Assembly: GCF_053078305.1 (NCBI RefSeq)
Contig: NZ_CP166879.1
DNA: 64,000 nucleotides
Reading direction: 5' to 3' (one strand)
A program made the position numbers and the translations under genes. Below the pieces are notes generated by a model that worked only from the letters and a program-made list of their open reading frames with translations, ran no database searches and was not told where the DNA came from. The first letter of the stretch is position 1. Each line of letters opens with the position of its first letter. Shown here piece by piece: positions 5,690-41,628 of this stretch.

Positions 5690-5878
5690 TTATCCAGCCG
5701 GTATTTCGTTATTCAGGTACAGCGATACTTTTTTTAACGGGAGGCATTCGCCAGAAATTTTTTGCTCGTCTCTTGCACGGAGGCATGATTCTTTACTGGC
5801 ATAAATTCCGGTAATCACATTCTGTGGCTCACCCGTTATAAGAAAAACAGTCATTACCAGTGCAAATGCAGAAGTCAC
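5690..5878 (-). CDS. Hypothetical small protein
   Basis: 62-aa ORF in the early-left operon with a hydrophobic N-terminus. No family recognised. Confidence 0.3.
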   Translation of the reverse strand: MTSAFALVMTVFLITGEPQNVITGIYASKESCLRARDEQKISGECLPLKKVSLYLNNEIPAG

Positions 5879-6063
5879 TGCTGCCCCCCGAAAATACCAA
5901 GTTTAAGAAGGGCAATTCTGGAGAGTATGGAATTATCATTGAGAAGATAAGGCTCATATTTTCTCATCTTAATGGCATCTTCAGTAAACTCCCGGTTACT
6001 GAGCAGAACACCAATATCAAAACACCCTTCAGACGTATTAACGTTTGGTAATAACGTTTCCAT
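5875..6063 (-). CDS. Hypothetical small protein
   Basis: 62-aa ORF overlapping the start of the next gene by 4 nt (coupled). No family recognised. Confidence 0.3.
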   Translation of the reverse strand: METLLPNVNTSEGCFDIGVLLSNREFTEDAIKMRKYEPYLLNDNSILSRIALLKLGIFGGQQ

Positions 6064-6073: not shown

Positions 6074-6631
6074 TCAACAATGAATTTTTAGTAATTGCTC
6101 CACAGTCATATTTTTAATTGCGCTCCGGTTTACAAGAGTCCAGCCTTGTTTCTCCAGATAAAACTGGAAGGTATCCAGGGTGCAGACCATTGCGCCGTCC
6201 GGAACGGTTTCAGTGAATTTGATATTGCCGTGTTCGTCGAGACGGATAACCAGGGTACGTCCGTCCCCGTGAATCATTTTGTCGGGAGACGGGGCGTTAT
6301 TCTGGCGCAGTTCTTTCTCCATGCGATCGAACTCAGCGATGTAGGCTTCTTTAAATGCAGCGGCTTTTTTGCCGGTGAAGCCCATCACCAGGAAAACGAA
6401 GCCGTTTTTGGTGATTTGGTACATGGGGCGTTTTTCGCCTTTGGCATCGGTGTAGGTAACCGACACAAAATTGTGTTCGTTAAAATTTGATGAGCAGTCT
6501 AAATTGCGAATTTTATCCAGTACTCGCTCGTGACGCTTACCAAAGAACTCTGCAATTGCAACAGACGTAGTGACAGCGCGACCATTTTTGATGGTTACGT
6601 CAGGGTGAGAAAGGGTAGGGATAGTAGCCAT
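6074..6631 (-). CDS. Rha-family phage regulatory protein (antirepressor-type)
   Basis: Starts MATIPTL at 6631 with RBS AAGAGG. Contains ...TTSVAIAEFFGKRHERVLDKIRNL..., a Rha-like N-domain. The upstream 99 codons of the long ORF are an RNA leader. Confidence 0.7.
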   Translation of the reverse strand: MATIPTLSHPDVTIKNGRAVTTSVAIAEFFGKRHERVLDKIRNLDCSSNFNEHNFVSVTYTDAKGEKRPMYQITKNGFVFLVMGFTGKKAAAFKEAYIAEFDRMEKELRQNNAPSPDKMIHGDGRTLVIRLDEHGNIKFTETVPDGAMVCTLDTFQFYLEKQGWTLVNRSAIKNMTVEQLLKIHC

Positions 6632-6800
6632 AATGGCAGCCTCTTGGTTGAGTATTAATAACTCACCACCAAGGTTTTCCACGACCATAAGGGTGGTGAG
6701 ACGTACAGGGGTGGAAATACCGGTCAACCAAGAATCCGGCCAGCCTTGCGGCTGCCCTGCACGCCCCACCATAATCTGAATGTGGCTGTGCATTACGCAT

Positions 6801-6877
6801 AAAAAAACCGCCTGAGCGCGGTTATGCGCTTGATTGAATTCCGGGTTTCCACGCCCGGCACCCGCTTTATGAGGTGC
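6801..6877 (-). ncRNA. C4 / IsrK / P4-CI-like small RNA element in the rha leader
   Basis: 77 nt: hairpin GCACC-TCATAAAGCG-GGTGC, hairpin CCGGG-CGTGGAAA-CCCGG, terminator AACCGC-GCTCAG-GCGGTT plus T7. Loop 2 is complementary to TTTCCAC at 6717-6711. A homologous element lies at 35806-35883. Confidence 0.55.
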
Positions 6878-7119
6878 AGATGAACTATAATTCCACCCGT
6901 TCTGGTTTTCAATAGCTACATTCAACATTTTCTCTTACCCTTCATCACCGAAGTGAACTTTGTTGATGCAGTGCCTGGTGCCTCCAGGTGACGTTAACCA
7001 GTTAACAATTAACGCCGGAATACAGAAGTATGCCCGTTACGCCCCGTAAAAGACCACTTTACGGTTTTAACTGTTCCGCGTGCGCTTAGCCGCATTCACC
7101 GCATCACAAAATTCACTTT

Positions 7120-7176
7120 AAAAAGGGTGGCAGAGCAGTCACGGAGTAGAACTGATGCCACCAAAGACTACACATG
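7120..7176 (-). ncRNA. dicF: DicF-like sRNA
   Basis: Minus strand reads ...GGTGGCATCAGTTCTACTCCGTGACTGCTCTGCCACCCTTTTT, very close to recalled E. coli DicF including the terminator. Lies downstream of a ydfA-like gene as in Qin. Confidence 0.65.
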
Positions 7177-7771: not shown

Positions 7772-8179
7772 TTATTGATGTTTGTTACGTTTGCGAGCTT
7801 CTAGTAGCTCGGTGAATAGGCGATTAAAATTCTCAACGCGGGCACGGAGTTCGCTGATCTGTGCTTGCTGCTCTGATTTTGGAAGTGCGCGATACAATCG
7901 CAACATCTCCAACTCATCTTCCGATAAGTCTAAGGCGCTGTTGAGTGCAACTGGTGGATCTGGTGTTTTATCCTCGTCACCAAACAGTATCCAAGTTGGT
8001 GAACATTGCAATACCTCAGCTAGGCGATGCAAATTTTGCCCGCGCGGGGCTGTATGGTCGCTTTCCCATAGTGAAATTGATGAGCCAGATACGCCAGCAG
8101 CTTTGCTTAAATCGTTTTGACTTAAACCAACCTGTTTGCGTCTTTCTCTAATTCGTTGACCTAAAGTTTTCTCGTTCAT
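7772..8179 (-). CDS. dicA: DicA-type HTH repressor (CI position)
   Basis: XRE HTH, then ...LQCSPTWILFGDEDK...SEQQAQISELRARVENFNRLFTELLEARKR, as in recalled DicA. Divergent from a cro-like gene. Confidence 0.75.
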   Translation of the reverse strand: MNEKTLGQRIRERRKQVGLSQNDLSKAAGVSGSSISLWESDHTAPRGQNLHRLAEVLQCSPTWILFGDEDKTPDPPVALNSALDLSEDELEMLRLYRALPKSEQQAQISELRARVENFNRLFTELLEARKRNKHQ

Positions 8180-14174: not shown

Positions 14175-14385
14175 AAACGGTTTGCGGGAAAAGGAGAGTT
14201 AAGTAGAATTGCAGCGGGTGCTTGAGGCTATCTGTCTCAGGCATGAACACCAAAAGGCAGATAGAGAAAAGCCCCAGTTAACATTACGCGTCCGGCAAGA
14301 CGCTTAACATTAATCTGAGGCTCAATCTGTGAACGGCAAATCTAGGTTAGCCTCTTACGCGCCGAAAGGCAAGGAGAAGCAGGCT

Positions 14386-14541
14386 ATGAAGCAGCAAAAG
14401 GCGATGTTAGTCGCCCTGATCGTCATCTGTATTACCGTCATTGTGACGGCACTGGTAACGAGGAAAGACCTCTGCGAGGTACGAATCCGAACCGGCCAGA
14501 CGGAGGTCGCTGTCTTCACAGCTTACGAACCTGAGGAGTAA
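14386..14541 (+). CDS. hokD: Hok/Gef-family type I toxin (HokD/RelF-like)
   Basis: MKQQKAMLVALIVICITVIVTALVTRKDLCEVRIRTGQTEVAVFTAYEPEE is near-identical to recalled RelF/HokD. The sok-type antisense RNA was not located. Confidence 0.75.
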   Translation: MKQQKAMLVALIVICITVIVTALVTRKDLCEVRIRTGQTEVAVFTAYEPEE

Positions 14542-20771: not shown

Positions 20772-21072
20772 CCGGGTATCAGTCATGCCCCGAAAATTTT
20801 AAATGTCTCACAATTCAGACGGTTGACAGTTGTCTGTTTTGCGGGGAGTTTGTTAAAAGAAACTGGCATGGTGAATCCCCCTGAGCGGAGGGGCGACTGG
20901 TGCATTAGGTGTTATCTTTGATACCTAGGAAAGTGAACGCGCGGGTTTGGTTGCACCGGGCTGAACTCACCGGGAGGCACCCGGCATCATGCGCATGATG
21001 ATACAGATACGCGGCTTTAGCCCCTCTCCGGAGGGGCTTTTATATGAATTTTGTAAGATATGAGTAAACTAA

Positions 21073-31091: not shown

Positions 31092-31281
31092 ACTGCAGGC
31101 GCTGCGTCAGGCGCGCCTTGATTTATTAACCGGTAAACGGGTGGTGTCTGTCCAGAAAGATGGTCGCAGAATTGAATATACGGCGGCCTCTCTGGATGAG
31201 CTTAACCGTGCGATCAATGATGCTGAGTTGGTACTGGGGACAACCCGCCGTCGCCGTCGTCCGCTGGGAGTGAGGTTATGA
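31075..31281 (+). CDS. W: Head-tail joining protein gpW
   Basis: 68 aa in the lambda W position, with a basic C-terminus. Confidence 0.8.
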   Translation: MVTVAELQALRQARLDLLTGKRVVSVQKDGRRIEYTAASLDELNRAINDAELVLGTTRRRRRPLGVRL

Positions 31282-32098
31282 AACGAACGCCTGTCCTGAT
31301 TGATGTGAACGGCGTTCCGCTTCGGGAGAGCCTAAGCTACAACGGGGGCGGCGCAGGATTTGGCGGGCAAATGGCAGAGTGGTTGCCACCCTCGCAGAGT
31401 GCCGATGCGGCCCTGCTGCCCGCGTTGCGTCTGGGGAATGCCCGTGCAGATGATCTGGTGCGCAATAACGGAATAGCGGCCAATGCGGTGGCCCTGCATA
31501 AGGATCACATTGTCGGGCATATGTTTCTGATTAGCTACCGTCCGAACTGGCGCTGGCTGGGGATGCGGGAGACCGCGGCAAAAAGTTTTGTCGATGAGGT
31601 GGAGGCGGCCTGGTCAGAATACGCAGAAGGGATGTTTGGTGAGATCGACGTGGAAGGGAAACGCACGTTTACGGAATTTATCCGTGAAGGTGTGGGCGTT
31701 CATGCGTTTAACGGCGAAATCTTTGTGCAGCCGGTCTGGGATACGGAGAGCACGCAACTGTTTCGTACGCGTTTTAAAGCCGTGAGTCCGAAACGGGTGG
31801 ACACGCCAGGACACGGTATGGGGAACCGTTTTCTGCGGGCCGGTGTGGAGGTCGATCGATATGGTCGTGCCGTTGCGTACCATATCTGTGAGGATGATTT
31901 TCCTCACTCCGGGAGTGGACGATGGGAACGGATCCCGCGTGAACTTCTCACCGGGCGTCCGGCCATGCTGCATATTTTCGAGCCGGTGGAGGACGGGCAG
32001 ACCCGTGGGGCCAATCAGTTTTACAGCGTCATGGAACGGCTGAAGATGCTCGATTCCCTGCAGGCAACACAGCTTCAGTCGGCCATTGTTAAAGCCAT
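31278..32098 (+). pseudogene. B: Portal protein gpB, 5' part (about 273 codons), interrupted by island insertion
   Basis: Lambda B-like up to ...TQLQSAIVKA, then 17 unrelated codons and a stop at 32150. Confidence 0.9.
32091..32098. repeat. attL core (AAAGCCAT)
   Basis: Identical octamer at 43930-43937. TATG follows 1 nt downstream at both junctions. Confidence 0.7.
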
Positions 32099-32227
32099 TT
32101 ATGTCTATCATCTCCCCGTAGTTGTCCGCATCGTTCGCCAACTCCACTGAAACCCTTGCTGCGGCTGGAATGTCGTTTTCCATACTTTTGATGACCGTTC
32201 ATCACACTTCCAGGTTTTCGCGGTTTT

Positions 32228-32280
32228 GTGTATTGCAATGTGTATTGCAAATTGGCGATCGGGATGGGTGTGTATTGCAA
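32228..32280. repeat. GTGTATTGCAA repeats (candidate integrase arm-type sites, left arm)
   Basis: Three copies at 32228-38, 32240-50 and 32270-80. Two more lie at 43835-57 near the other end. Confidence 0.5.
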
Positions 32281-32298
32281 ATCTCTTGAGGGCTGTTA

Positions 32299-33540
32299 AT
32301 GGCTATTGAAAACAAACTCAGTGACAAACTGTTAAAGAGTCTTGTCGGAAAACGGCAGGACAAACAAAAAACAATAGCGGATGGGCGCGGGTTGTCTGTG
32401 CGTGTAAGCATGGTTGGGGGGATCAGCTTTGTTTTTTACTATCGTCTTGGTGGCAGGGAATCCCCTCCGGTATGGCTTACACTTGGGCGCTATCCTGATA
32501 TGTCTCTTGCAACAGCCAGGCGCATGCGTGATCAGTGCCGTGAGTGGCTGGCTGAAAATCTGGACCCCCGCAGGCAAATAAAACTTGCCGCCGAAAAAAC
32601 CATGCAACCAGTGACCGTAAGGGATGCGCTGTTTTACTGGTACGACAATCACGCCACAACAGCCAGAAAAGAGCATGAATATTTAATAAAACGATTTGAA
32701 AAGCATATCTTCCCCTATATCGGTGATATGGCTATAGAACAGTGCAAATTACACACATGGCTTGCCGTCTTTGACAGGATCAAAAAAAATGCGCCTGTTA
32801 TGTCTGGTGCAATTTTTCTTGATATCAAACAGGCGTTGCGTTTTTGTCGCGTCAGGCAATACATCGCGTGCGATCCCTTTGGCGATATTAACGTAAGTTA
32901 TGTCGGGCGCTCATCCGGTATAAGGGATCGCGTTCTTAATATCAATGAAACAGCGGATGTATGGTCTTATGCTTACGGTAATAATTTGCTGACACTGTCA
33001 TCAATACATAACAGAAGAATAATGGTTATCTGCCTGGTGTTTGGTTGCCGTCAGCAGGAGGCGAGGTTATCCACATGGGACGAATGGGATTTAAAAAACT
33101 GGGTATGGACAGTCCCAAAAGAGCACAGCAAAAACAAGGAGGCCATAGTAAGGCCTGTTCCTGACGGCATAAAACAATGGCTCGTTAATCTTTACGCAGA
33201 AACAAAAAATCGCGGTTATGTTGTCGGTTGTGCTTTGCAAAGGGCGACAATAACAGGGGCTGCAAACAGAATATGCAGGCGTCTTGGTCATGATATTAAT
33301 GGCTTGTGGTGCATACATGATTTCAGGCGCACATTTTCCACTGCGCTTAATGATATGGGGGCGGATCCTTATATTGTCGAACTTCTTTTAGGTCATAAAG
33401 TGAAAGGGGTTGCCGGTGTTTACAATAAAAGCAGGCATATAAAGAAAAAACTTGAGGTGCTTAATATGTGGGTTAATTACCTTAATACGATAGCAGGATT
33501 TAACAACAACGTTATCGAGCTTAATAAAGAGGTGGTGTGA
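32299..33540 (+). CDS. int: P4-type tyrosine integrase
   Basis: 413 aa. N-terminal KLSDKLLKSL...DGRGLSVRV...FVFYYRLGG (DUF4102-like arm-binding domain). C-terminal HDFRRTFST...LLGHKV..VAGVYN. Confidence 0.9.
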   Translation: MAIENKLSDKLLKSLVGKRQDKQKTIADGRGLSVRVSMVGGISFVFYYRLGGRESPPVWLTLGRYPDMSLATARRMRDQCREWLAENLDPRRQIKLAAEKTMQPVTVRDALFYWYDNHATTARKEHEYLIKRFEKHIFPYIGDMAIEQCKLHTWLAVFDRIKKNAPVMSGAIFLDIKQALRFCRVRQYIACDPFGDINVSYVGRSSGIRDRVLNINETADVWSYAYGNNLLTLSSIHNRRIMVICLVFGCRQQEARLSTWDEWDLKNWVWTVPKEHSKNKEAIVRPVPDGIKQWLVNLYAETKNRGYVVGCALQRATITGAANRICRRLGHDINGLWCIHDFRRTFSTALNDMGADPYIVELLLGHKVKGVAGVYNKSRHIKKKLEVLNMWVNYLNTIAGFNNNVIELNKEVV

Positions 33541-33541
33541 T

Positions 33542-33799
33542 ATGGCAATTTATTCTCTTGTTGATGAAAACGATTTGCGCACAATGAAGGACATTGATCG
33601 GTTCATTCGTGAAAAAGAGTGCATAGCACTTACCACGCTGGCAAACTCAACACGCTGGAAAATGGAGCAGGCAGGTAAATTCCCGCGACGTATCAAGATC
33701 GGTGAACGTGCGGCAGGGTATCGACTTTCAGAGGTTCAGGCATGGATCCGTGGTGAGTGGCATCCTGGATGGAAACCTGGAAAAACAAAACAGCAATAA
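33542..33799 (+). CDS. alpA: AlpA-family regulator/excisionase
   Basis: 85 aa with ...STRWKMEQAGKFPRRIKIGERAAGYRLSEVQAWI, the AlpA/Vis-type HTH. Directly after int. Confidence 0.75.
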   Translation: MAIYSLVDENDLRTMKDIDRFIREKECIALTTLANSTRWKMEQAGKFPRRIKIGERAAGYRLSEVQAWIRGEWHPGWKPGKTKQQ

Positions 33800-33812
33800 C
33801 CAGTAAATAACG

Positions 33813-33834
33813 CCCCTCATCAAGAGGGGTTTTT
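33813..33834 (+). terminator. Intrinsic terminator after alpA
   Basis: CCCCTC-ATCAA-GAGGGG followed by T5. Confidence 0.6.
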
Positions 33835-33853
33835 GTCTATAGGGTAAAACGCG

Positions 33854-34432
33854 ATGAATAAAAATATTGCCGTGACGGGCAAGGGGTACGCTCGTCCAGT
33901 GAAAAAATTCTGTGATATTCGTGATCTTGTCGTTCTGCGCTTTGATGGTGTGAGCGTTCGCGTGGTGTATGTGAACGGCGATCCGTGGTTTGTTGCCGTT
34001 GACGTGTGCGCTGCGCTGGAAATTGTTGATCACAAGGTTGCGTTACGCCGTCTCGATGATGATGAAAAGGGGGAGTGTTTAATACCCACCCCAGGTGGAA
34101 ATCAAACAATGCGAACGGTATGCGAGTCAGGGTTCTACAAACTAATCGCCAGAAGTCGGAAAGCTGTTACTCCTGGCACGTTCGCCCGTCGTTTCAGTAA
34201 CTGGGTATTCAGAAATGTGATACCAGGTATCAGAAAAACGGGGGCTTATGGTATCCCGTGGGGGGCATTACAGGATTTTTCCCGCCGTAAAGAGCAATAT
34301 CAAATAAGTGCCAGCGAGAAGGGGAGGGAGCTACAGGCATGTAAGCGCAAAAAACGTGAACTGGAGGAAGAAGAAAAAAGGCTGATACGTGAATATCAGC
34401 CTGAGTTTTACTTTGGTGAGCGTATTCAGTAA
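33854..34432 (+). CDS. BRO-N domain protein (antirepressor-like)
   Basis: ...LRFDGVSVRVVYVNGDPWFVAVDVCAALEI...GGNQTMRTVCESGFYKLIARSR, a Bro-N pattern. Confidence 0.65.
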   Translation: MNKNIAVTGKGYARPVKKFCDIRDLVVLRFDGVSVRVVYVNGDPWFVAVDVCAALEIVDHKVALRRLDDDEKGECLIPTPGGNQTMRTVCESGFYKLIARSRKAVTPGTFARRFSNWVFRNVIPGIRKTGAYGIPWGALQDFSRRKEQYQISASEKGRELQACKRKKRELEEEEKRLIREYQPEFYFGERIQ

Positions 34433-34770
34433 CCACACGCGGTGCTGATTATACGGTACATCGTGTTAACCGAGAAGCTACCCACCAGCAAGGCAAAATC
34501 TTCTGCTAAAAAATGACATATGGCCAGTCGTCCGGAAAGCATGAAATTTTACAAAAATGGAAAATGAAGATTTTTATTGTGCTGGTGGGTAAAAACAAAA
34601 AGCGCCCCGTTGCCGGAGCGCCCTTGTGAACAATTAACCTGCTGCGAAAAAATTGGATCAGTGCAGGGAAATTATATCAACTGTGTGAAGAAGCGCCACA
34701 ATTGCCAGTTTAGCTTTGCGGCGAACGCGTCAATAAAGAATATTCTTTCTTTAAATTCTGTTTGTGTATT

Positions 34771-34800
34771 TTTTCGTAGTTTTTCGTAGTTTTTCGTAAG
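34771..34800. repeat. Three tandem 10-bp repeats TTTTCGTAGT
   Basis: Exact 10-bp periodicity. The same CTACGAAA half site forms a palindrome at 43442-43458. Confidence 0.6.
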
Positions 34801-34895
34801 GAGAAAGAGCGGCGCGTATGCACCGCTAAGGAGTTTATTTTCATGACTTATGCAGCTTTCAATCTTAGCACCGCCGTAGCTGGTGGACAAGGCTA

Positions 34896-35123
34896 TCAGC
34901 CAGGCGGTCGGTTTTTAGTGGCTTTTAACCGCCGTGGGTATTTCTCGACAAAATCTTCAAGGGCAAATTTTTCTGGTGGCACTAAGCGCGGCGCTGGTGG
35001 TGGTATTTTTGTTCTGGTTAGTTCTTCCTCAAGTCTGGCGCAGGCTTCTAACTGCCTTTGCCGGATGATTTCATCATCTTGCGTTTGCGTGTCTTGTATT
35101 GGTGATAGTGTGTTGTTGGTCAT
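34896..35123 (-). CDS. Hypothetical protein (second gene of the leftward regulatory operon)
   Basis: 75-aa ORF downstream of the RHH gene. Confidence 0.4.
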   Translation of the reverse strand: MTNNTLSPIQDTQTQDDEIIRQRQLEACARLEEELTRTKIPPPAPRLVPPEKFALEDFVEKYPRRLKATKNRPPG

Positions 35124-35180
35124 GATACTGCCCTGTAAAGCAATGCGCCGGAGTACCTCACGCCACGGCGCTGATAGTGA

Positions 35181-35486
35181 TTATTCTGATTCTTGGGTCT
35201 TGCGACGCTGGAGTTCTTCGCGTGCAACGGTGACAAGTTGCCCGATTTCTTCCGCTGCTTTGATGCCGATTTGTTCGACCTTAGCCAGAGCATCCAGTGA
35301 AGACACAAGGGGATTTTCTCCGCTGCCTTCTGCCTGGCGGCGGGCGATTTCACCGCGCATGGCGGTTACTATGAATCCGGCGTTGCTTTCACCGTCCAGT
35401 TTTACGGATTCCATGCCTTCAATAACATCATGCGGGATCCGAGCTGTCAGTGATTGTGATTTTGCGTTTTTTGAACCTGTAGCCAT
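35181..35486 (-). CDS. Ribbon-helix-helix (Arc/CopG-like) regulator
   Basis: ATG at 35486 with RBS GAGAGGA. N-terminal KSQSLTARIPHDVIEGMESV beta-strand/helix pattern. Divergent from the rightward operon. Confidence 0.55.
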   Translation of the reverse strand: MATGSKNAKSQSLTARIPHDVIEGMESVKLDGESNAGFIVTAMRGEIARRQAEGSGENPLVSSLDALAKVEQIGIKAAEEIGQLVTVAREELQRRKTQESE

Positions 35487-35507
35487 CTGTAATCCTCTCA
35501 ATGAAAG

Positions 35508-35576
35508 TGTAAGACAATATACACATAAAAAGTCTTACATAAAAGCATTGACATGTAAGCCACCTATAAATAAAGT
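35508..35576. promoter_or_regulatory. Operator palindrome plus rightward promoter
   Basis: TGTAAGAC (35508-15) and GTCTTACA (35532-39) form an inverted repeat. TTGACA (35548-53), 17 bp, TAAAGT (35571-76). Confidence 0.45.
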
Positions 35577-35805
35577 TACTTACACCTTGTTAATGCAAGG
35601 TGCAGAAACGACGAAACCCGGCAGTGCGCTAACACTAACCGGGCTTCTAACCACCAACGATAGAAAGCGTATCGAGGTAGCTATGAGAAATCATACCACA
35701 CACCCGCAAGGGCGGGACTCGCACAACCTGAATAAATACATCTGGCGTTTTCTGGCCCGAAAAAACCAGTTGATCGCCAGTGTCGAAAATAGCTATGATT
35801 CCCGC

Positions 35806-35883
35806 GCACCTCATAAAACGGGTGCCGGGATTGGCGTCCTGGGCAAAACTGAAGCGCATAACACGCGCCCCGCGTGTTTTTTT
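35806..35883 (+). ncRNA. C4 / IsrK / P4-CI-like small RNA element in the island leader
   Basis: GCACC-TCATAAAACG-GGTGC; CCGGGA-TTGGCG-TCCTGG; ACACGCG-CCC-CGCGTGT plus T7. Loop 2 is complementary to ACGCCAA at 35963-69. Homologous to 6877-6801. Confidence 0.55.
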
Positions 35884-36045
35884 GTGCCGCATAGTCACAC
35901 CTTATCAATGGTGGGCTGTACGGGGGCGGAGCAATCCGCGCCGGTTTCTTCAGTGTCCGGTTACGCCAACCCTGTACAGTCCGCCACCAGCGAAATTGGC
36001 GTTTCCGGTGGCGGTTATCTTAACCACACTGAGGAGGCTGCCAAC

Positions 36046-36237
36046 ATGGCTACTATCCCTACCCTTGTACATTCTCAAACCGCCTTTCTCTGGCGCTTTA
36101 TCATCTTTGGCGCGTCAGACCATCAAATCATCCACGTCACCGCCTGGACGGAACGCGAAGCGCGTAGCCGTTGCCCGTCCGGTTGTGTTGCTGTATTCGC
36201 CGCCCGTATTCGTCAGGAGGTGTGCCATGTGCAATAA
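36046..36237 (+). CDS. Icd-like small protein (host cell-division inhibitor family of P1/P4-type elements)
   Basis: RBS GAGGAGG. MATIPTLVHSQTAFLWRF...VTAWTEREARSRCPSG... Has the same first 7 codons as the helper rha gene. Confidence 0.5.
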   Translation: MATIPTLVHSQTAFLWRFIIFGASDHQIIHVTAWTEREARSRCPSGCVAVFAARIRQEVCHVQ

Positions 36238-36484
36238 AACCACACCGGACGCAGCCGCCGCGCTCACTACACTGATGCACGCGCTGATTGATATTTCTGT
36301 TATTGCTGACAGGGCGCATAAGCACGCCACCAGTGAAACAGAATATGCCGGGGCTTTCGTTCCTCATTCGCTGGCGGTTATGCAACTTAGTGCTGATATG
36401 GCGCTGAATGAGGCCAAAGCTATCCTGATTTCTGATTGTGAAAATGGGGGGGGGTTATGCGTGATGATCGTTTTAATGCCCTGA
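36227..36484 (+). CDS. Hypothetical protein
   Basis: 85 aa, RBS AGGAGG. Overlaps the icd-like stop. Confidence 0.4.
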   Translation: MCNKTTPDAAAALTTLMHALIDISVIADRAHKHATSETEYAGAFVPHSLAVMQLSADMALNEAKAILISDCENGGGLCVMIVLMP

Positions 36485-36678
36485 AACAGGAGTTTGATGG
36501 TGCGCCTGATGATGCAGGTGATGCGCTTTCGTCAATATCCGAACTGATAAGAGTGGCCTTTTTCTTACTTGGCACGAAAGAATATAAATCAACTGGAATA
36601 GACGTACTGAATATTACTGCTGATTATGCGGAATATATGGCAGAAGTGGATTTAAGAAAGATAACGGACAGGGGGTAA
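36457..36678 (+). CDS. Hypothetical protein
   Basis: 73-aa coupled ORF. Confidence 0.4.
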   Translation: MRDDRFNALKQEFDGAPDDAGDALSSISELIRVAFFLLGTKEYKSTGIDVLNITADYAEYMAEVDLRKITDRG

Positions 36679-36679
36679 T

Positions 36680-36913
36680 ATGCGTGATATTTACCACGAA
36701 ACAATAGACCGCGCATTTAGTGCCCTTGCTTACGCTGAAGGTATGTACGAAATATTGCAAATGTGTCTGGAAACATTTGGCGATAATGAGCGTGATGTAA
36801 AGAAGGCGCGGATTATTAAATCACTGATAACTCTCCTTGAACCTGTAATAACAGAGTTGCAGGAAATAGACTTATTGCACGACAGATATAACGAACAGCA
36901 CACCGGAGAATAA
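36680..36913 (+). CDS. Hypothetical protein
   Basis: 77-aa coupled ORF. Confidence 0.4.
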   Translation: MRDIYHETIDRAFSALAYAEGMYEILQMCLETFGDNERDVKKARIIKSLITLLEPVITELQEIDLLHDRYNEQHTGE

Positions 36914-36918
36914 AAATA

Positions 36919-37218
36919 ATGAAACTTAAATATCCTGGCTTAACTGCCAGTGGCAACACTCACCCTAAATTTACGCGCGGTGATATTTACCGCGACCAGT
37001 ACGGCGGCACGGTAATGATTAAGGGCGTGGCGGGACGGTGCGTAACTTACCGCCGTGAAGGCTACGAATATGATTGCGTGATGCCTGTTTATCAGTTCCG
37101 GCGTGATTTTTCTCTGGTACAGACCGCGCCGCATAACGTGCCCACCAGCAACGCCAGGGCACGGGCAAACATCCAGAAGCTGAAAACCATGATTAACGGA
37201 TTCAGGGGTAAAAAATGA
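36919..37218 (+). CDS. Hypothetical protein
   Basis: 99-aa coupled ORF. Confidence 0.4.
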   Translation: MKLKYPGLTASGNTHPKFTRGDIYRDQYGGTVMIKGVAGRCVTYRREGYEYDCVMPVYQFRRDFSLVQTAPHNVPTSNARARANIQKLKTMINGFRGKK

Positions 37219-38624
37219 AACTGGCACCGAACGTAAAACGATTACCGAAAGATAAATACACCGAAGCGGTTATTTTTGCGGGTATTGATGCTCACTCATT
37301 CGCAGAGCATTACATCATTGCACAGGCCAAAAAAGCAGGCGATCCAGTCCCTCCCGTTTATCTGGGGCGTTATCAGTTAAGCGAACTGGATAACCTCCAG
37401 ATTGTTGATGATGGGCGATACAGGGCGACGGTGATACGCGCCGGAAATATTGAAGAGCCGCAGCTGTTAACCATCGCCACGAAACTGGCGAGCGCCGGAG
37501 TCCAGGAGGCGCGGCTACTTTCTGAAAATTTCGAATTGCTGGAGGAATGGAGCGACCAGCTTCCACGGCTTAGGGAGGCATGGGAACGCGGGGAAAGCCT
37601 GGTCATGAAAAAAATTCCCCAGCGAAAAACCACGCTACCGATGAGCGTTGGATCTACCGGATACGACACACAGCTTGATTACGTGGTAAAGGGGATTATT
37701 CCGGCATCGTCGCTTTGCAGCATATACGGGGCGAGCGGTTCCTATAAATCATTCCTTGCCGGATCGTGGGCGTGTCACGTTTCCACGGGCCGCCAGTGGG
37801 GAGGCCGCAGGGTGGCGCATGGCGCTGTTCTCTATGTGGTTGGTGAAGGCGGTATCGGCGTTCCGCGTCGTGTAAAAGCCTGGGAGGTTGTGCACGGTGA
37901 GCAGGTGAAAAATCTGTATCTGGTAAACCGTCCCATCTTTCCGGCTGTCCCGCTTGATGTTGATGAACTGGTTATTGCTGCCAGTCAGGTGGAGAGGGAA
38001 ACGGGTAAACCTGTTCGCATGATTATTCTGGACACGCTGGCGCGTTGCTTTGGCGGCAATGATGAAAATGACTCCCGCGACATGGGGGCATTTATCCGTG
38101 GTTGTGACGAGCTTAAACGGCGCACAGGGGCTACGGTGCTGGTGGTTCACCATTCCGGCAAGGATGAAACAAAGGGGGCGCGTGGTTCCAGTGCATTTCG
38201 TGCATCACTGGACGCTGAATACCGGATACGCAGGGAGGACGCAGGAAGCGAAGCGCTGGTTATCTCATGCACCAAAATGAAGGACGCGGAGGAACTCAAA
38301 GAGGCTGCCTATGATTTGCGGGTGGTGGAGCTTTTTACCGACGCTGACGGGGAGTTAATTACGTCGCTGGTGGTGGTGGATAAGCCGCGCCCTCCCGTTG
38401 AACTGGAGCGCATCGAGGAGGCAGGCAACAAGACGGAAAACCATACCGCGCTATGGGGGTGCATCCGTTCACGCACACAGAACGGCGACAAGTGCACGAT
38501 CCCGCTGTTACGTGACGATATGAAAAAGCTGGGGTATGACACAAAACACCTTAAACGATGGTTAGCCAAACTGGAAAAAGACGACGTGATCTACATTGAC
38601 GGTGATGATGTAGGACCACTGTAA
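37215..38624 (+). CDS. Replication protein with RepA/AAA_25-type RecA-fold ATPase domain
   Basis: Walker A-like YGASGSYKSF, MIILDTLARCFGG..ENDSRDM and LVVHHSGKDETKGARGSSA motifs typical of RepA-like helicases. Iterons follow. Confidence 0.65.
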   Translation: MKLAPNVKRLPKDKYTEAVIFAGIDAHSFAEHYIIAQAKKAGDPVPPVYLGRYQLSELDNLQIVDDGRYRATVIRAGNIEEPQLLTIATKLASAGVQEARLLSENFELLEEWSDQLPRLREAWERGESLVMKKIPQRKTTLPMSVGSTGYDTQLDYVVKGIIPASSLCSIYGASGSYKSFLAGSWACHVSTGRQWGGRRVAHGAVLYVVGEGGIGVPRRVKAWEVVHGEQVKNLYLVNRPIFPAVPLDVDELVIAASQVERETGKPVRMIILDTLARCFGGNDENDSRDMGAFIRGCDELKRRTGATVLVVHHSGKDETKGARGSSAFRASLDAEYRIRREDAGSEALVISCTKMKDAEELKEAAYDLRVVELFTDADGELITSLVVVDKPRPPVELERIEEAGNKTENHTALWGCIRSRTQNGDKCTIPLLRDDMKKLGYDTKHLKRWLAKLEKDDVIYIDGDDVGPL

Positions 38625-38825
38625 AAAGTGGGCATTAAAAGTGGGAAAGGTGGGCGATTTAACGTAATTTTAACAAAATCACCCACTTTCCCACGTGTAT
38701 ATATCCCAAAAAGTGGGCACTAAAAAAATACCTATGAAACAAGATGATATAAATCCCAAACTTCCCACGTTGGACGAAGTGGGAAAACGTAAAAAGTGGG
38801 CGAAAAAAGTGGGTAGAGGTGGGCG
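38620..38825. repeat. Island ori candidate: AAAGTGGG iterons
   Basis: At least 8 direct (A/G)GTGGG copies (38627, 38640, 38649, 38712, 38778, 38795, 38808, 38818). Inverted copies at 38682-94 and 38764. Located directly 3' of rep. Confidence 0.6.
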
Positions 38826-38826
38826 A

Positions 38827-39078
38827 ATGACTCAAAAACACAGAGACAGAACAGAGCCAAAATATAAAGCGTTAGACATGACAGAGCACGCTTTAAAGGT
38901 GGCAATCAGGGTAATAGACCGCCACACGCGGGAAGGATACGCGAAGGAACATCCCGACCTGATAAGCGCATTCATGACCACAGCGGCGGCAAACTTTGCC
39001 ACGCTGACAGAACGGGAGATAGCCGAAGCGGAACAGGTAACAACCATCAACGTTAAAACCGGAGAGGTGGAATCATGA
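38827..39078 (+). CDS. Hypothetical protein
   Basis: 83 aa from the ATG at 38827. Longer starts (38695 GTG) would read through the iterons. Confidence 0.35.
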   Translation: MTQKHRDRTEPKYKALDMTEHALKVAIRVIDRHTREGYAKEHPDLISAFMTTAAANFATLTEREIAEAEQVTTINVKTGEVES

Positions 39079-39485
39079 CAGCACAGATAGCCGCTTACGG
39101 GCGGCTGGTGGACGACCCGCAGGTAAAACAAACCAGCAAGGGCACACCGATGACGCTGGCGCGTATGGCGGTATCTCTGCCATGCAGCCAGGCACAGGAC
39201 GGGCAGGCTACGTTATGGCTATCAGTGATGGCATTTGGTAAGCAGGCCGACTTCCTGGCTAAACATCAAAAAGGCGATGTTGCCAGCGTATCCGGCACGA
39301 TGCAGGTAAGCCAGTGGACCAGACAGAACGGGGAAACGCGGCAGGGTTATCAGGTTATTGCAGACAGTGTAATCAGTGCCCGTGCTGCCCGTCCTGGCGG
39401 GAGCAGACGTACAACCACAGGCACACAGGGTAATCAGCCACCAGCGGGAGGCGATGACCCTTACGGTGACGGTATTCCGTTCTGA
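39075..39485 (+). CDS. ssb: Single-stranded DNA-binding protein
   Basis: OB-fold N-terminus, Gly/Pro-rich linker and an acidic tail DDPYGDGIPF. Confidence 0.8.
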   Translation: MTAQIAAYGRLVDDPQVKQTSKGTPMTLARMAVSLPCSQAQDGQATLWLSVMAFGKQADFLAKHQKGDVASVSGTMQVSQWTRQNGETRQGYQVIADSVISARAARPGGSRRTTTGTQGNQPPAGGDDPYGDGIPF

Positions 39486-39495
39486 GGGGGTGACG

Positions 39496-39768
39496 ATGGT
39501 ACATGACCGCATAGCGGAGGAACTCGAGGCAAAAGGCTTTTACCGGAGGGCGGCGGCGCGATGGGGTGAAGTTATGCAGCTGGTGGAGACAGACAAGGAA
39601 CGGCATCAGGTTACGATGCGACGGCTGGAATGTTCCAGGAAGGCACAGAGGCCACCGGAGCCGCCGGATAACTTCGGAGACCTGAAAAAAGCAGTAGATC
39701 GCACTTATGCCGAAATGGGTATGGATGGTGTAAGCGATGAAATATGGCGTAATTACCCAGACAGCTAA
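39496..39768 (+). CDS. PerC-like transcriptional activator
   Basis: MVHDRIAEELEAKGFYRRAAARWGEVM.. resembles the recalled PerC-family N-terminus. Confidence 0.45.
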   Translation: MVHDRIAEELEAKGFYRRAAARWGEVMQLVETDKERHQVTMRRLECSRKAQRPPEPPDNFGDLKKAVDRTYAEMGMDGVSDEIWRNYPDS

Positions 39769-39774
39769 TCAACA

Positions 39775-39796
39775 GCCGGAGAAATCCGGCTTTTTT
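39775..39796 (+). terminator. Intrinsic terminator
   Basis: GCCGGAGAAATCCGGC plus T6, identical to the hairpin at 42049-42071. A second hairpin lies at 39810-39845. Confidence 0.65.
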
Positions 39797-40007
39797 GTAC
39801 CCAAAAAAAGCCCGATAAGTACAGGAGGCATCTTATCGGGCTTTTGCATATGAGGTTTTTTTGGTGCACTGACACACATGATCGGGGTAATCATTTCATA
39901 ATTTGCAACACAACTCAACATCATTGCACAAAATGCAATCCTGATTATAATCAGAGCTGGATGAACATCCAGTTCTGATTTTTTAAGTCAAAGAGGAATT
40001 TCTTACT

Positions 40008-40214
40008 ATGGCTGAAGAGAAAAAAGGCGGTGTTTCGGTGTACATAAGCCCCGAAATCGTGGAGGTGCTCAAGCAGCGCCACAAAAAAAACTATGAGGCT
40101 GGCGTAGCGGCTGGACTGGATCCGCTGATGACGCCGGAGCCGTCGATAGGTTCACTTGTGCGCTCTTATTTACTTGCGGCGCTTGGGATGCATAAAAATT
40201 ATGGTGGTGAATAA
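40008..40214 (+). CDS. Hypothetical small protein, first gene of the island head operon
   Basis: 68 aa, RBS AAGAGGA. Stop overlaps the capsid-gene start. Confidence 0.4.
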   Translation: MAEEKKGGVSVYISPEIVEVLKQRHKKNYEAGVAAGLDPLMTPEPSIGSLVRSYLLAALGMHKNYGGE

Positions 40215-41269: not shown

Positions 41270-41280
41270 CGGGGGATTCT

Positions 41281-41616
41281 ATGGACACTCCATACATTGA
41301 GTTATTTGCAGGCAGTCAGCAGGTATCCACGACGCTGGTACATTTTGCCGCTGATGCTGGCGTTATTCAGGAATTTACCCCGCTGATGCTGGCGGACAAT
41401 GGCGAGTTTAAGCCGTGGGATGGTCAGGAATCTGGCAAGGCTGTTTATCTGACCTCGTACCCCGTGGACACGTCAAAGCAGAAATCAGCACAGTGTTACA
41501 AGACGGGGATATTTAATATCGCCGCCGTAAACTGGCCTGAGAGCGCCGACACTGACGCGAAAAAATGCGCCGCCTTTGCGGGTTCTGGCGTATCCGTTCA
41601 GCCGCTGGCGCGATAA
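41281..41616 (+). CDS. Lambda gpD-family head decoration protein paralogue (D')
   Basis: 111 aa. Shares TPLML, WDGQ, YK.G.F, WPES and AF.G blocks with helper D. Confidence 0.75.
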   Translation: MDTPYIELFAGSQQVSTTLVHFAADAGVIQEFTPLMLADNGEFKPWDGQESGKAVYLTSYPVDTSKQKSAQCYKTGIFNIAAVNWPESADTDAKKCAAFAGSGVSVQPLAR

Positions 41617-41628
41617 GCAGGGGAAACG

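What the first reader, a model, noticed from the sequence alone, without database searches (positions are those of the whole stretch)
6601..6931. The helper's Rha antirepressor gene is preceded by a C4/IsrK-like RNA and starts with an icd-type initiation region
Seen: the 284-aa ORF call is misleading. Its first 99 codons contain two hairpins and a T7 terminator (6877-6801). They are conserved at nucleotide level with the island leader rather than as protein. The real start, MATIPTL (6631), shares its first 7 codons and RBS context with the island icd-like gene. The mRNA segment TTTCCAC...GTGGAAAA (6717-6675) can form a hairpin, and CTTGGT...ACCAAG (about 6670-6640) partly covers the RBS AAGAGG. 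Inference: antirepressor synthesis is under antisense-type RNA control, as with P1 c4-icd-ant or Gifsy-1 isrK-anrP.
Basis: partly seen in the sequence, partly recalled or inferred. Interest (0 to 1): 0.6.

Follow-up and report, generated by a model that had tools for sequence, protein, structure and literature searches.

The report
P4-type RNA immunity leader on rha
The prophage's Rha regulator gene sits behind a known kind of phage RNA switch, a small antisense RNA plus decoy sites as in phages P4, P1 and Gifsy-1, so this is a well-supported new example of a known mechanism and not a new one.

Summary
Rfam places isrK at 6877-6801 (68 bits) and C4 at 6776-6689 (80 bits), both above gathering score, with a second pair at 35806-35991 in the island.

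Its two single-stranded segments, b' (6732-6724) and a' (6717-6711), are complementary to b1/a1 in the IsrK part. They are also complementary to a2 (6682-6676) and b2 (6651-6640); b2 covers the AAGAGG ribosome-binding site of the ATG at 6631. Across 44 leaders with different a'/b' combinations these sites co-vary: 95% paired against 60% when shuffled. The prophage and island copies carry different specificities.

The closest relative is the P4 immunity leader (seqA-CI-seqC-kil). It shares even the GAGGCTGCCAnnATGGCTAC start region.

The first 99 codons show no protein-type selection. However, that frame is kept free of stop codons in 72 of 75 leaders, and it always starts upstream of the internal promoter, as with the nested P4 genes eta and kil. 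The 284-aa ORF is therefore probably translated from upstream transcripts and is not a simple miscall.

The element is an 865-bp cassette inserted between dicF and dicB. It is a new member of a known kind, of moderate interest.

The parts
6089..6953 (-). 865-bp cassette (internal promoter, IsrK-like RNA, C4-like RNA, rha) inserted between dicF and dicB of the early-left operon
   Evidence: Phage Tritos aligns to window 7393-6954 and resumes at 6088-5959, with the cassette absent. The flanking sequences are AAAGTTCA and AAAATTCA. Cassette plus flanks is at least 80% covered in 384 of 5426 complete E. coli genomes.
6884..6912 (-). sigma-70 promoter TTGAAA-17-TATAGT, internal to the long ORF; predicted transcript start near 6877
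   Evidence: The promoter scan scores 10 of 12. Across 25 Rha-type homologues TTGA and TATAnT are conserved while the spacer varies. The Rfam isrK model position 1 aligns to 6877.
6801..6877 (-). IsrK / P4 seqA-like leader RNA carrying target sites a1 (6852-6846) and b1 (6837-6829) and an intrinsic terminator (stem 6823-6806, then T7)
   Evidence: Rfam isrK scores 68.4 bits against a gathering score of 50. The terminator scan finds the stem and T-run. Co-variation of a1:a' and b1:b' is shown; coordinates are.
6689..6776 (-). C4 / P4 CI-like antisense RNA; b' lies in the loop of hairpin 2 (6732-6724) and a' in the single-stranded joint (6717-6711); predicted mature RNA about 6770-6692, by homology with the annotated P1 c4 ends
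   Evidence: Rfam C4 scores 79.8 bits against a gathering score of 45. Its helices are 99-100% paired with compensatory changes. The P1 c4 RNA ends are annotated in the P1 record. ATGG at the 5' end and CCACC at the 3' end are invariant or nearly so across the 44 leaders.
6676..6682 (-). a2 target site GTGGAAA, complementary to a'
   Evidence: The cognate a':a2 duplex is -9.1 kcal/mol.
6640..6651 (-). b2 target site TCAACCAAGAGG, which overlaps the Shine-Dalgarno sequence AAGAGG (6645-6640)
   Evidence: The b':b2 duplex is -14.6 kcal/mol and ranks 1 of 44 partners.
6640..6674 (-). local hairpin that sequesters the Shine-Dalgarno sequence in cis (CCTTGGTGGTGAGT ... ACTCAACCAAGAGG)
   Evidence: It appears in both the minimum-energy and centroid folds. 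In 46 of 55 distinct homologous segments at least 3 of 4 SD bases are paired, with mean z -2.4.
6074..6631 (-). nested short ORF of 185 aa: Rha-family regulator and putative antirepressor; the start MATIPTL is homologous to the P4 kil and island icd-like starts
   Evidence: Pfam Phage_pRha matches aa 21-106. Codon-position periodicity begins here. PHROGs hits are to Rha-like and anti-repressor families, and the C-terminal part hits the AnrP family phrog_2379 at E 2.4e-9.
6074..6928 (-). long ORF of 284 aa, in frame with the short one and starting 51 nt upstream of the transcript start (eta-like frame)
   Evidence: The ORF is listed. Pfam Phage_ASH matches aa 14-109, which is the translated leader. 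The frame is kept open. RefSeq annotates this long form as the Rha family protein.
5875..6063 (-). dicB (cell-division inhibitor), 11 nt downstream of the rha stop codon and therefore in the same transcription unit
   Evidence: Pfam DicB, E 1.4e-36.
7125..7176 (-). DicF sRNA, upstream in the same operon
   Evidence: Rfam DicF scores 61.1 bits.
7772..8179 (-). DicA-like short repressor (135 aa, HTH only, no peptidase domain)
   Evidence: Pfam finds HTH_3 and related HTH families only.
35806..35991 (+). second, hetero-specific copy of the leader in the island: isrK 35806-35882 (a1 35831-35837, b1 35848-35854) and C4 35904-35991 (b' 35948-35956, a' 35963-35969)
   Evidence: Rfam scores are 66 and 77.6 bits. 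The cognate b':b2 duplex is -15.0 kcal/mol and ranks 1 of 44; cross-pairing of the b segments with the prophage copy is weak, -3.2 to -7.1 kcal/mol.
35996..36237 (+). island a2 (35996-36002), b2/SD (36026-36037) and the Icd/Kil-like gene (36046-36237, 63 aa), nested in the 464-aa long ORF 34843-36237
   Evidence: The protein is 39% identical to P1 Icd, E 1e-7. Pfam Phage_ASH matches aa 318-411 of the long ORF.

Best explanation
Window 6953-6089 is a self-contained P4-type RNA immunity cassette fused to a Rha-family gene. It is inserted between dicF and dicB in the early-left operon of a lambdoid prophage.

**Proposed mechanism**
1. A constitutive promoter (6912-6884) fires inside the long ORF.
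2. Most transcripts stop at the intrinsic terminator. This gives a ~77-nt IsrK/seqA-like RNA that carries target sites a1 and b1.
3. Read-through transcripts contain the C4/CI-like RNA. By homology it is cut out by RNase P at the invariant AU^GG and ends at the CCACC 3' end.
4. The loop b' and joint a' of this RNA pair with a2 and b2 just upstream of the rha ATG at 6631. b2 covers the Shine-Dalgarno sequence, which is also held in a local hairpin.
5. Translation of the 185-aa Rha protein is therefore blocked in the lysogen. Through polarity or termination, so is expression of dicB downstream.
6. The IsrK part, which carries the same a/b sites, competes for C4. It acts as a decoy or activator, as IsrK does in Gifsy-1.
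7. When the prophage is derepressed, transcripts arriving from upstream can be translated from ATG 6928 through the whole leader. Ribosomes would then melt the terminator, C4 and the target sites. This would yield a 284-aa extended Rha and make expression insensitive to C4, as P4 eta does for kil.
8. Rha is then available to act on the DicA-like short repressor as an antirepressor.

**What is shown and what is inferred**
- Shown here: the elements, their order, the co-varying complementarity, the lack of amino-acid selection in the leader, the selection that keeps the frame open, and the cassette boundaries.
- Inferred by homology: RNA processing, translational block, polarity, translation of the long form, and the antirepressor activity of Rha.
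For: **RNA elements and their order**
- Rfam hits are above gathering score for isrK and C4.
- The same two families hit P4 and Gifsy-1, and C4 hits P1.
- The P1 record annotates a1, b1, c4, a2, b2, icd and ant in the same order.
- The tool-called promoter and terminator fit the model. TTGA and TATAnT are conserved among homologues.

**Specificity of the antisense pairing**
- The 75 leaders carry 36 distinct b' and 17 distinct a' segments.
- Cognate duplexes average -12.5 kcal/mol (b':b1) and -14.2 kcal/mol (b':b2). Non-cognate duplexes average -6.0 and -6.7.
- In the alignment-based count, 94.9% of a1:a' and b1:b' cells are paired against 59.5% when shuffled. There are 236 double-change cells against 67, and 0 of 500 shuffles reach this.
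- C4 helices co-vary.

**Coding signals**
- Variable columns at codon positions 1/2/3 are 42/48/44 in the leader and 65/41/128 in the Rha coding part.
- Frame-0 stops number 7, against 161 and 267 in the other frames. In distinct a/b blocks the counts are 1 against 61 and 41.
- A start codon lies upstream of the transcript start in nearly all loci.
- P4 has the homologous 214-aa long ORF, with kil nested in frame.

**Literature**
- PMC10111431 summarises the P4 eta/kil mechanism.
- PMC4825925 shows that Gifsy-1 IsrK activates anrP translation and notes that IsrK is homologous to P4 seqA.
- PMC10448788 shows that the 135-aa DicA repressor has no RecA cleavage site and is relieved by an antirepressor.

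**Context**
- The repressor in this window is 135 aa and HTH-only.
- The C-terminal part of Rha hits the AnrP PHROG family.
- The cassette boundaries come from comparison with phage Tritos.
Against: - There are no expression data. RNA ends, processing, translational repression and translation of the long ORF are all inferred.
- The ATG at 6928 has only a weak Shine-Dalgarno-like sequence (TAAGAG, 3 nt spacing; read).
- The leader sequences are related, so part of the open-frame signal could be inherited. The hypervariable-block control argues against this.
- In two other leader groups (genes starting MANR... and MLAT...) the open frame is out of frame with the downstream gene. In-frame fusion is therefore not a general requirement.
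- P1 and Gifsy-1 have stops in that frame.
- Rha carries a different domain from P1 Ant (KilAC) and from the N-terminus of AnrP (ORF6N). Pairwise similarity to AnrP is weak, E 0.006. Antirepressor function is a guess based on family names and context.
- The published mechanisms differ between P1 (translational block followed by Rho termination), P4 (termination) and Gifsy-1 (activation by IsrK). Sequence alone cannot tell which applies here.
Confidence: 0.6

Rival explanations
1. The same RNA immunity leader controls the 185-aa Rha, but the 284-aa ORF is only an annotation artefact. It stays open because the underlying RNA is conserved, and it is never translated.
For: - The leader shows no codon-position signature.
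- The promoter and an intrinsic terminator lie inside the ORF.
- Pfam 'Ash' is simply the translated leader.
- The ATG at 6928 has a weak ribosome-binding site.
- In the MANR and MLAT leader groups the open frame is not in frame with the cargo gene.
Against: - Frame 0 is stop-free in 72 of 75 leaders even inside hypervariable blocks, where the other frames carry 61 and 41 stops.
- All spacer length differences (9, 39 and 81 nt) are multiples of 3.
- A start codon always lies upstream of the promoter.
- The homologous P4 long ORF, eta, is reported to be translated and functional (PMC10111431).
Confidence: 0.28
2. Gifsy-1-type logic dominates. The long transcript folds in cis (a1/b1 with a'/b') into a translationally silent form. 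The short IsrK-like RNA acts in trans as the activator of Rha synthesis. The processed C4 RNA has little role as a repressor.
For: - In Gifsy-1, IsrK supplied in trans raised anrP translation 139-fold, and mutations in the paired segments behaved as predicted.
- The a1:a' and b1:b' pairing co-varies strongly.
- The Gifsy-1 locus carries the same Rfam families.
Against: - The window lacks a separate orf45 with a stop codon overlapping the start of the antirepressor gene. Here that frame is fused to rha.
- The leader sequence and gene start are closer to P4 than to Gifsy-1.
- The equally strong complementarity of a' and b' to a2 and b2 over the ribosome-binding site is what the P1 repression model requires.
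- The two models do not exclude each other.
Confidence: 0.08
3. The 284-aa product is a genuine two-domain Ash-Rha protein, and the RNA family matches are incidental to a coding sequence.
For: - Pfam Phage_ASH matches at E 6.7e-16.
- Hundreds of database proteins of 283-284 aa carry both domains.
- RefSeq annotates the long form.
Against: - The first 99 codons show no third-position excess.
- The Ash profile runs exactly from the -10 box to codon 10 of rha. It also matches the obsolete P4 'cI protein' ORF, whose region encodes the CI RNA.
- Three-way co-variation of short segments has no rationale at the protein level.
- A promoter and a terminator lie inside the supposed domain.
Confidence: 0.03

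Closest known systems
Satellite phage P4 immunity region (PLE - seqA - cI RNA - seqC - nested eta/kil genes)
   Same: - Rfam isrK and C4 both hit P4, at 8692-8615 and 8507-8420.
- P4 has the same a1/b1 - antisense RNA - a2/b2/SD layout, with its own specificity: GTGAGAA/TTCTCAC and TTCACAGG/CCTGTGAA.
- The start region is the same: GAGGCTGCCATCATGGCTAC, giving MATT in P4 against MATI here.
- The promoter lies inside a long ORF that is in frame with the nested short gene.
- The leader frame is open in both.
   Different: - The cargo here is a 185-aa Rha-family protein. Only about 7 codons of kil remain. In P4 the cargo is the 65-aa Kil/Icd-like protein.
- The host element is a lambdoid prophage early-left operon, not a satellite.
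- The P4 spacer is 81 nt longer.
- The a/b specificity differs.
- The long ORF starts only 51 nt upstream of the transcript start. No coupling to an AlpA-type gene is evident.
Phage P1/P7 immI operon (c4 - icd - ant)
   Same: - The order a1, b1, C4 RNA, a2, b2 over the ribosome-binding site is as annotated in the P1 record.
- C4 is the same Rfam family.
- Heteroimmunity arises through changes in a/b, seen here as prophage against island.
- An antirepressor-type gene and a cell-division inhibitor lie in the controlled unit: icd in P1, dicB here.
   Different: - There is no separate icd ORF between C4 and the regulator gene.
- P1 Ant carries a KilAC domain, not Rha.
- The P1-type a1b1 Rfam model scores only 24.5 bits here, below its gathering score of 46.7.
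- P1 has stops in the leader frame.
- No C1-type operator is evident.
Salmonella Gifsy-1 isrK - orf45 - anrP locus (Hershko-Shalev 2016, PMC4825925)
   Same: - A lambdoid prophage carries IsrK with its own promoter and a leaky terminator, then a C4-like RNA (STnc1160), then an antirepressor-type gene.
- The C-terminal part of the window's Rha hits the AnrP PHROG family.
- Both prophages have a short repressor of the DicA/Gifsy type.
   Different: - Gifsy-1 has orf45, which ends in a stop overlapping the anrP start. Here that frame runs into rha without a stop.
- The AnrP N-terminus is ORF6N, not Rha.
- The Gifsy-1 locus lies downstream of the Q-like antQ gene, not between dicF and dicB.
- The a/b specificity differs. 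Gifsy-1 shares its a type with the island copy, not with the prophage copy.
Helper-embedded PICI satellites (Tommasini, Mageeney and Williams 2023, PMC10111431)
   Same: - The window's island splits the prophage portal gene. It has integrase, AlpA, a Bro-network zone with isrK/C4 homologues, a replication zone and captured late genes.
- The paper already notes that Rfam C4 and isrK hit such islands.
   Different: The paper reports the RNA hits in the satellites. The homologous leader on a Rha gene of the helper prophage itself is not discussed in the passages read.

Membership tests
Rfam RF01695 C4 antisense RNA (P1 C4 / P4 CI) | Covariance-model score at or above the gathering threshold, over the full-length model | tested here: met
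   79.8 bits against a threshold of 45, model positions 1-87 of 87, at 6776-6689.
Rfam RF01695 C4 antisense RNA (P1 C4 / P4 CI) | A long closing helix plus two hairpins, supported by compensatory changes | tested here: met
   The helices are 99.6%, 98.6% and 100% paired across 44 leaders. Across the whole tested structure (IsrK plus C4 helices), 23 pairs change on both sides, and 0 of 500 shuffles reach this.
Rfam RF01695 C4 antisense RNA (P1 C4 / P4 CI) | Two single-stranded segments (a', b') complementary to sites a2 and b2 that span the ribosome-binding site of the next gene | tested here: met
   The a':a2 duplex has 7 bp at -9.1 kcal/mol. The b':b2 duplex has 11 bp at -14.6 kcal/mol and covers AAGAGG. 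The cognate b':b2 pairing ranks 1 of 44.
Rfam RF01695 C4 antisense RNA (P1 C4 / P4 CI) | Excised from the leader transcript by RNase P | not testable with these tools
   Only the invariant AU^GG at the 5' end and the CCACC 3' end, as in the annotated P1 c4, are seen.
Rfam RF01394 isrK (P4 seqA homologue) | Covariance-model score at or above the gathering threshold, plus its own promoter and an intrinsic terminator | tested here: met
   68.4 bits against a threshold of 50 at 6877-6801. The promoter TTGAAA-17-TATAGT and a terminator stem followed by T7 are found.
Rfam RF01394 isrK (P4 seqA homologue) | Carries sites complementary to the downstream C4/CI RNA | tested here: met
   a1:a' and b1:b' are 94.9% paired against 59.5% when shuffled, with a co-variation score of 0.88 against 0.19.
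Rfam RF01394 isrK (P4 seqA homologue) | Binds Hfq, and the short form acts in trans on the read-through form | not testable with these tools
   This needs experiments. It has been shown only for Gifsy-1.
Rfam RF03163 c4-a1b1 (P1-type a1/b1 element) | Covariance-model score at or above the gathering threshold | tested here: not met
   24.5 bits against a threshold of 46.7 at 6890-6838. Sites a1 and b1 exist, but in the isrK/P4-type fold.
P1/P7 immI operon (c4-icd-ant) | A separate icd ORF whose translation is the direct target, followed by overlapping ant1/ant2 genes with a KilAC domain | tested here: not met
   The targeted ribosome-binding site belongs to the Rha gene itself. There is no icd ORF, and the domain is Rha while P1 Ant1 carries ANT/KilAC.
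P4-type immunity leader with nested eta/kil genes | Leader homologous to PLE-seqA-cI-seqC, including the kil start region | tested here: met
   P4 is hit by both Rfam families and aligns with the window leader. The start region GAGGCTGCCAnnATGGCTAC is shared.
P4-type immunity leader with nested eta/kil genes | A long ORF that starts upstream of the internal promoter, is open through the leader, and is in frame with the short gene | tested here: met
   The long ORF 6928-6074 is in frame with the ATG at 6631. The leader frame has 0 stops, against 3 and 3 in the other frames. The P4 equivalent is the 214-aa ORF 8812-8168.
P4-type immunity leader with nested eta/kil genes | The long form is translated from upstream transcripts, and that translation prevents immunity termination | not testable with these tools
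   Only comparative evidence for selection against stop codons is available. The claim for P4 is taken from PMC10111431. The primary paper, PMC94026, was not held.
Gifsy-1 isrK-orf45-anrP | A 45-codon ORF across the C4-like RNA that ends in a stop overlapping the start of the antirepressor gene (translational coupling) | tested here: not met
   In Gifsy-1 the ORF from the C4 AUG is 45 codons and stops at +1 of the anrP ATG. In the window the same AUG (6772) runs in frame into rha without a stop.
Phage antirepressors | The protein binds and inactivates the resident repressor | not testable with these tools
   Only family names and context are available. These are Pfam Phage_pRha, PHROGs 'Rha-like regulator' and 'anti-repressor' hits, and the short 135-aa HTH-only repressor (PMC10448788).

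The most novel reading that the evidence does not exclude
The leader is a dual-constraint sequence. Its hypervariable a/b segments form a combinatorial RNA 'immunity barcode': 36 b classes and 17 a classes, re-assorted, were found in a small sample. At the same time the segments are kept free of stop codons in one frame, so that ribosomes arriving from upstream can read through and switch the immunity off.

In this prophage that would couple derepression of the early-left operon to C4-insensitive synthesis of an N-terminally extended Rha and of DicB. This would be a feed-forward commitment step. The helper prophage and its embedded satellite would keep separate barcodes so that neither silences or triggers the other. 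The P4 eta/kil principle would then apply to lambdoid prophage cassettes generally, and the Pfam 'Ash' family would be its footprint.
Probability: 0.35. Interest if true: 0.55.

Novelty: new member of a known kind. Interest (0 to 1): 0.4.

Why it matters
1. **Annotation.** About 7% of complete E. coli genomes carry this cassette in the same context. They are annotated with a 284-aa 'Rha family' protein and no RNA genes. Related islands carry an 'ash family protein' pseudogene laid over RNA genes.
2. **Induction biology.** Prophages with short DicA/Gifsy-type repressors depend on antirepressors. This places a candidate antirepressor, and the toxic dicB gene behind it, under an RNA immunity switch.
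3. **Testability.** The natural library of co-varying a/b specificities, with two different ones in a single helper-satellite composite, is ready-made material. It can be used to test how RNA immunity specificity evolves and whether co-resident elements avoid cross-talk.
4. **Pfam.** PF10554 appears to model a translated RNA leader and not a protein domain.

Tried and rejected
- **Regular expressions for the C4 loops.** The first two attempts failed or picked the wrong hairpin. This was fixed.
- **Alignment-based counting of a':a2 and b':b2.** I abandoned this because MAFFT shifts the register of a2 and b2 between leader groups. I used alignment-free duplex energies with non-cognate controls instead, and counted only a1:a' and b1:b' on the alignment.
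- **Rfam c4-a1b1.** I considered it as the identity of the upstream part. It scores below threshold here, while isrK fits.
- **'Partial DicB' pseudogene.** RefSeq annotates one upstream of the cassette, and I looked for a duplicated dicB 5' end. No internal repeat turned up in self-BLAST. The comparison with Tritos explains the region as a simple insertion.
- **Primary P4 papers.** PMC94026 and PMC176756 are not held. The statements about P4 eta/kil therefore rest on the summary in PMC10111431 and on the P4 sequence itself.
- **LexA box.** Reading the cassette promoter region by eye found no CTGT-N8-ACAG motif. No tool was run.
- **Protein homologue search with the 284-aa ORF.** It returned mostly 283-284-aa database entries. 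These reflect gene callers choosing the longest ORF, so I did not use them as evidence about the start codon.
- **Similarity of Rha to AnrP.** Pairwise BLASTP is only marginal, E 0.006. The link rests on the PHROG profile hit and is treated as weak.
Full report
**1. The observation**

The ORF listing gives a 284-aa ORF at 6928..6074 on the minus strand. A gathering-threshold Rfam scan of the whole window places isrK at exactly 6877-6801 (68.4 bits, threshold 50). It places C4 antisense RNA at 6776-6689 (79.8 bits, threshold 45) and DicF at 7176-7125. A second isrK/C4 pair lies at 35806-35882 and 35904-35991.

The consensus scan finds one strong minus-strand promoter, TTGAAA-17-TATAGT at 6912-6884. 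It also finds a terminator stem at 6823-6806 followed by T7. The 278-nt leader folds better than all 200 shuffles (z -3.8). The fold reproduces the IsrK 5' hairpin, the terminator, the C4 fold and a hairpin over the ribosome-binding site.

The ATG at 6631 is preceded by AAGAGG. Its first 21 nt are identical to the island gene start at 36046.

**2. What the complementary segments are**

The P1 record annotates, in order: promoters, a1, b1, the c4 RNA, a2, b2 and icd, followed by ant. The window has the same order.
- The loop of the second C4 hairpin, CTTGGTTGA (b', 6732-6724), is complementary to TCAATCAAG in the IsrK part (b1, 6837-6829).
- It is also complementary to TCAACCAAGAGG (b2, 6651-6640), which contains the Shine-Dalgarno sequence.
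- The single-stranded joint TTTCCAC (a', 6717-6711) is complementary to GTGGAAA in an IsrK hairpin loop (a1, 6852-6846) and again at 6682-6676 (a2).

The island copy has the same geometry with different letters: a is TTGGCGT/ACGCCAA, and b is ACTGAAG/CTTCAGTGT/ACACTGAGGAGG.

That hairpin recurs in homologues: at least 3 of 4 SD bases are paired in 46 of 55 distinct segments.

**3. Is the complementarity more than chance?**

A 24-nt pattern from the transcript start retrieved 120 viral-contig loci. Adding P1, P4 and Gifsy-1 gave 75 usable leaders, with 36 distinct b' and 17 distinct a' segments.
- Cognate duplex energies average -12.5 kcal/mol (b':b1), -14.2 (b':b2), -9.5 (a':a1) and -9.6 (a':a2).
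- Non-cognate energies average -6.0, -6.7, -5.2 and -6.0.
- The b':b2 duplexes of the prophage (-14.6) and the island (-15.0) each rank first of 44.
- Pairing of the b segments between the prophage and island copies is weak, -3.2 to -7.1.

On a MAFFT alignment of 44 leaders with distinct combinations, the named a1:a' and b1:b' pairs are 94.9% paired. Shuffled columns give 59.5% and slid controls give 29-48%. There are 236 double-change cells against 67 (0 of 500 shuffles), and 14 of 16 pairs change on both sides. On the same alignment the C4 helices are 99-100% paired, with 23 co-varying pairs.

This is the P1/P7 heteroimmunity principle, seen here as a large natural series.

**4. Closest relative**

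Rfam finds isrK plus C4 in P4 (8692-8615 and 8507-8420) and in Gifsy-1. P1 has C4 plus the c4-a1b1 model. Here the c4-a1b1 model is below threshold, at 24.5 bits against 46.7.

The P4 sequence after CI reads ...GTGAGAA...TTCACAGGAGGCTGCCATCATGGCTACAACCCTTACC, the start of kil (MATTLTP). The island gene is an Icd/Kil homologue, 39% identical to P1 Icd. The prophage gene keeps only about 7 kil codons before Rha sequence begins.

Hershko-Shalev et al. already noted that IsrK is a structural homologue of P4 seqA. They also noted that a processed RNA, STnc1160, lies downstream. Their orf45 is the reading frame across the C4-like RNA, starting at the invariant AUGG. Comparison with the annotated P1 c4 5' end shows that this AUGG is the RNase P cleavage site.

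**5. Is the 284-aa ORF a miscall?**

Two tests point in different directions.

*First test.* Among 25 unique Rha-type homologues, variable columns fall 65/41/128 on codon positions 1/2/3 in the coding part from 6631. In the leader they fall 42/48/44, and upstream of the transcript start 10/10/10. No amino-acid sequence is therefore under selection in the first 99 codons.

Pfam Phage_ASH matches residues 14-109, that is, from the -10 box to codon 10 of rha. It also matches the island long ORF and the obsolete P4 'cI protein' ORF. PF10554 therefore looks like a translated RNA leader. RefSeq lays an 'ash family protein' pseudogene over the island leader, and it annotates the 284-aa form of Rha.

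*Second test.* The frame is nevertheless kept open.
- Frame 0, anchored at the transcript start, has no stop in 72 of 75 leaders. The exceptions are P1, Gifsy-1 and one variant.
- Pooled stops are 7, 161 and 267 in frames 0, 1 and 2. In distinct hypervariable a/b blocks the counts are 1, 61 and 41.
- Spacer length differences of 9, 39 and 81 nt are all multiples of three.
- An in-frame start codon lies upstream of the transcript start in nearly all loci, commonly at -51, -57 or -60. The promoter is therefore internal to the ORF.

P4 has the same arrangement. A 214-aa ORF (8812-8168) contains the leader and is in frame with kil. According to Tommasini et al., this is eta, which is translated only from the upstream late promoter. 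Its translation prevents CI-dependent termination, and kil is the truncated nested form. I could not read the primary paper.

I conclude that the long ORF is probably traversed by ribosomes on transcripts coming from upstream. The 185-aa form is the product of the cassette's own transcripts.

**6. Context**

Comparison with phage Tritos, which has dicF followed directly by dicB, shows that window 6953-6089 is an 865-bp insertion. dicB starts 11 nt after the rha stop codon, so it lies in the unit controlled by the leader.

Upstream are DicF, a DUF1391 gene and a 135-aa HTH-only repressor. DicA, also 135 aa, lacks a RecA cleavage site and is relieved by an antirepressor, as are the Gifsy repressors. 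This makes an antirepressor role for Rha plausible.

Rha carries Pfam Phage_pRha, whereas P1 Ant1 has KilAC and AnrP has ORF6N. Its C-terminal part hits the AnrP PHROG family (E 2.4e-9), but pairwise similarity is marginal. The function is inferred, not shown.

**7. Mechanism proposed**

The steps are set out under Best explanation.
- Shown: the elements, their order, the co-variation, the coding-signal tests and the cassette boundaries.
- Inferred by homology with P1, P4 and Gifsy-1: processing by RNase P, the block of the ribosome-binding site, polarity on dicB, the decoy role of the IsrK-like RNA, read-through translation of the long form, and antirepression.

**8. Novelty and score**

All parts belong to described families. 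The combination of isrK and C4 hits in satellites is already noted in the literature. What I did not find described in the papers read:
- this leader on a Rha gene inside the dicBF-type operon of the helper prophage itself;
- the breadth of the a/b specificity series;
- the stop-codon avoidance that extends the eta/kil idea to other leaders.

I rate it a new member of a known kind, interest 0.4.

Noticed in passing
window 31278-44709 (island about 32.2-43.9 kb): The island interrupts the prophage portal gene. ORF 31278-32150 matches portal profile positions 35-295, and ORF 43876-44709 matches positions 289-526. The island carries an integrase (32299-33540), AlpA (33542-33799), a Bro-N antirepressor-like gene (33854-34432), a RepA-type helicase (37215-38624), its own major head protein (40214-41269) and a small terminase (42237-42791). 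This matches the 'helper-embedded PICI' class of PMC10111431. A close relative of the island's leader-icd region lies in an element next to tRNA-Pro in E. coli E2865.
   Followed up: partly
window 32228-32248 and 43835-43855: A 21-bp exact direct repeat, GTGTATTGCAATGTGTATTGC, lies near both ends of the island. It may be an attachment-site or arm-type repeat. The exact crossover point in the portal gene was not mapped.
   Followed up: no
window 6889-6602 (-), 35794-36075 (+); L123 (P4) 8584-8168 (-): Pfam PF10554 'Ash protein family' matches only the frame-0 translation of the isrK-C4 leader, plus the first ~10 codons of whatever gene follows. It also matches the obsolete P4 'cI protein' ORF. 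PGAP annotates 'ash family protein' pseudogenes over these RNA genes. The family appears to model a translated RNA leader.
   Followed up: partly
window 34843-36237 (+): In the island the leader frame is part of one continuous 464-aa ORF. It starts 963 nt upstream of the transcript start and ends with the Icd-like gene. It is a much longer eta-like ORF than in the prophage cassette. In E. coli E2865 the same region is annotated as three fragments.
   Followed up: partly
L004 4877-4260 (-) and other 'MANRKQ' loci among L002-L121: In a large group of leaders the open leader frame continues out of frame for about 100 codons across the downstream 76-aa gene (MANRKQ...), giving a 205-aa overlapping ORF. 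Whether this is chance or a selected read-through frame was not resolved.
   Followed up: no
window 6959-7113 (-) and 20837-21049 (+): Rfam STnc100 matches at full score at 20837-21049, downstream of three tRNA genes. A sub-threshold STnc100-like stretch (30.8 bits, threshold 47) lies between DicF and the cassette.
   Followed up: no
window 14216-14391 (+): A hok/sok-type locus is present: Rfam sok antitoxin RNA, 109.7 bits, in the prophage nin-type region.
   Followed up: no
window 6945-6922 (-): A 7-codon mini-ORF (ATGAAGGGTAAGAGAAAATGTTGA) overlaps the ATG at 6928 of the long ORF by 7 nt (read). It could couple translation into the long frame. Its conservation was not checked.
   Followed up: no
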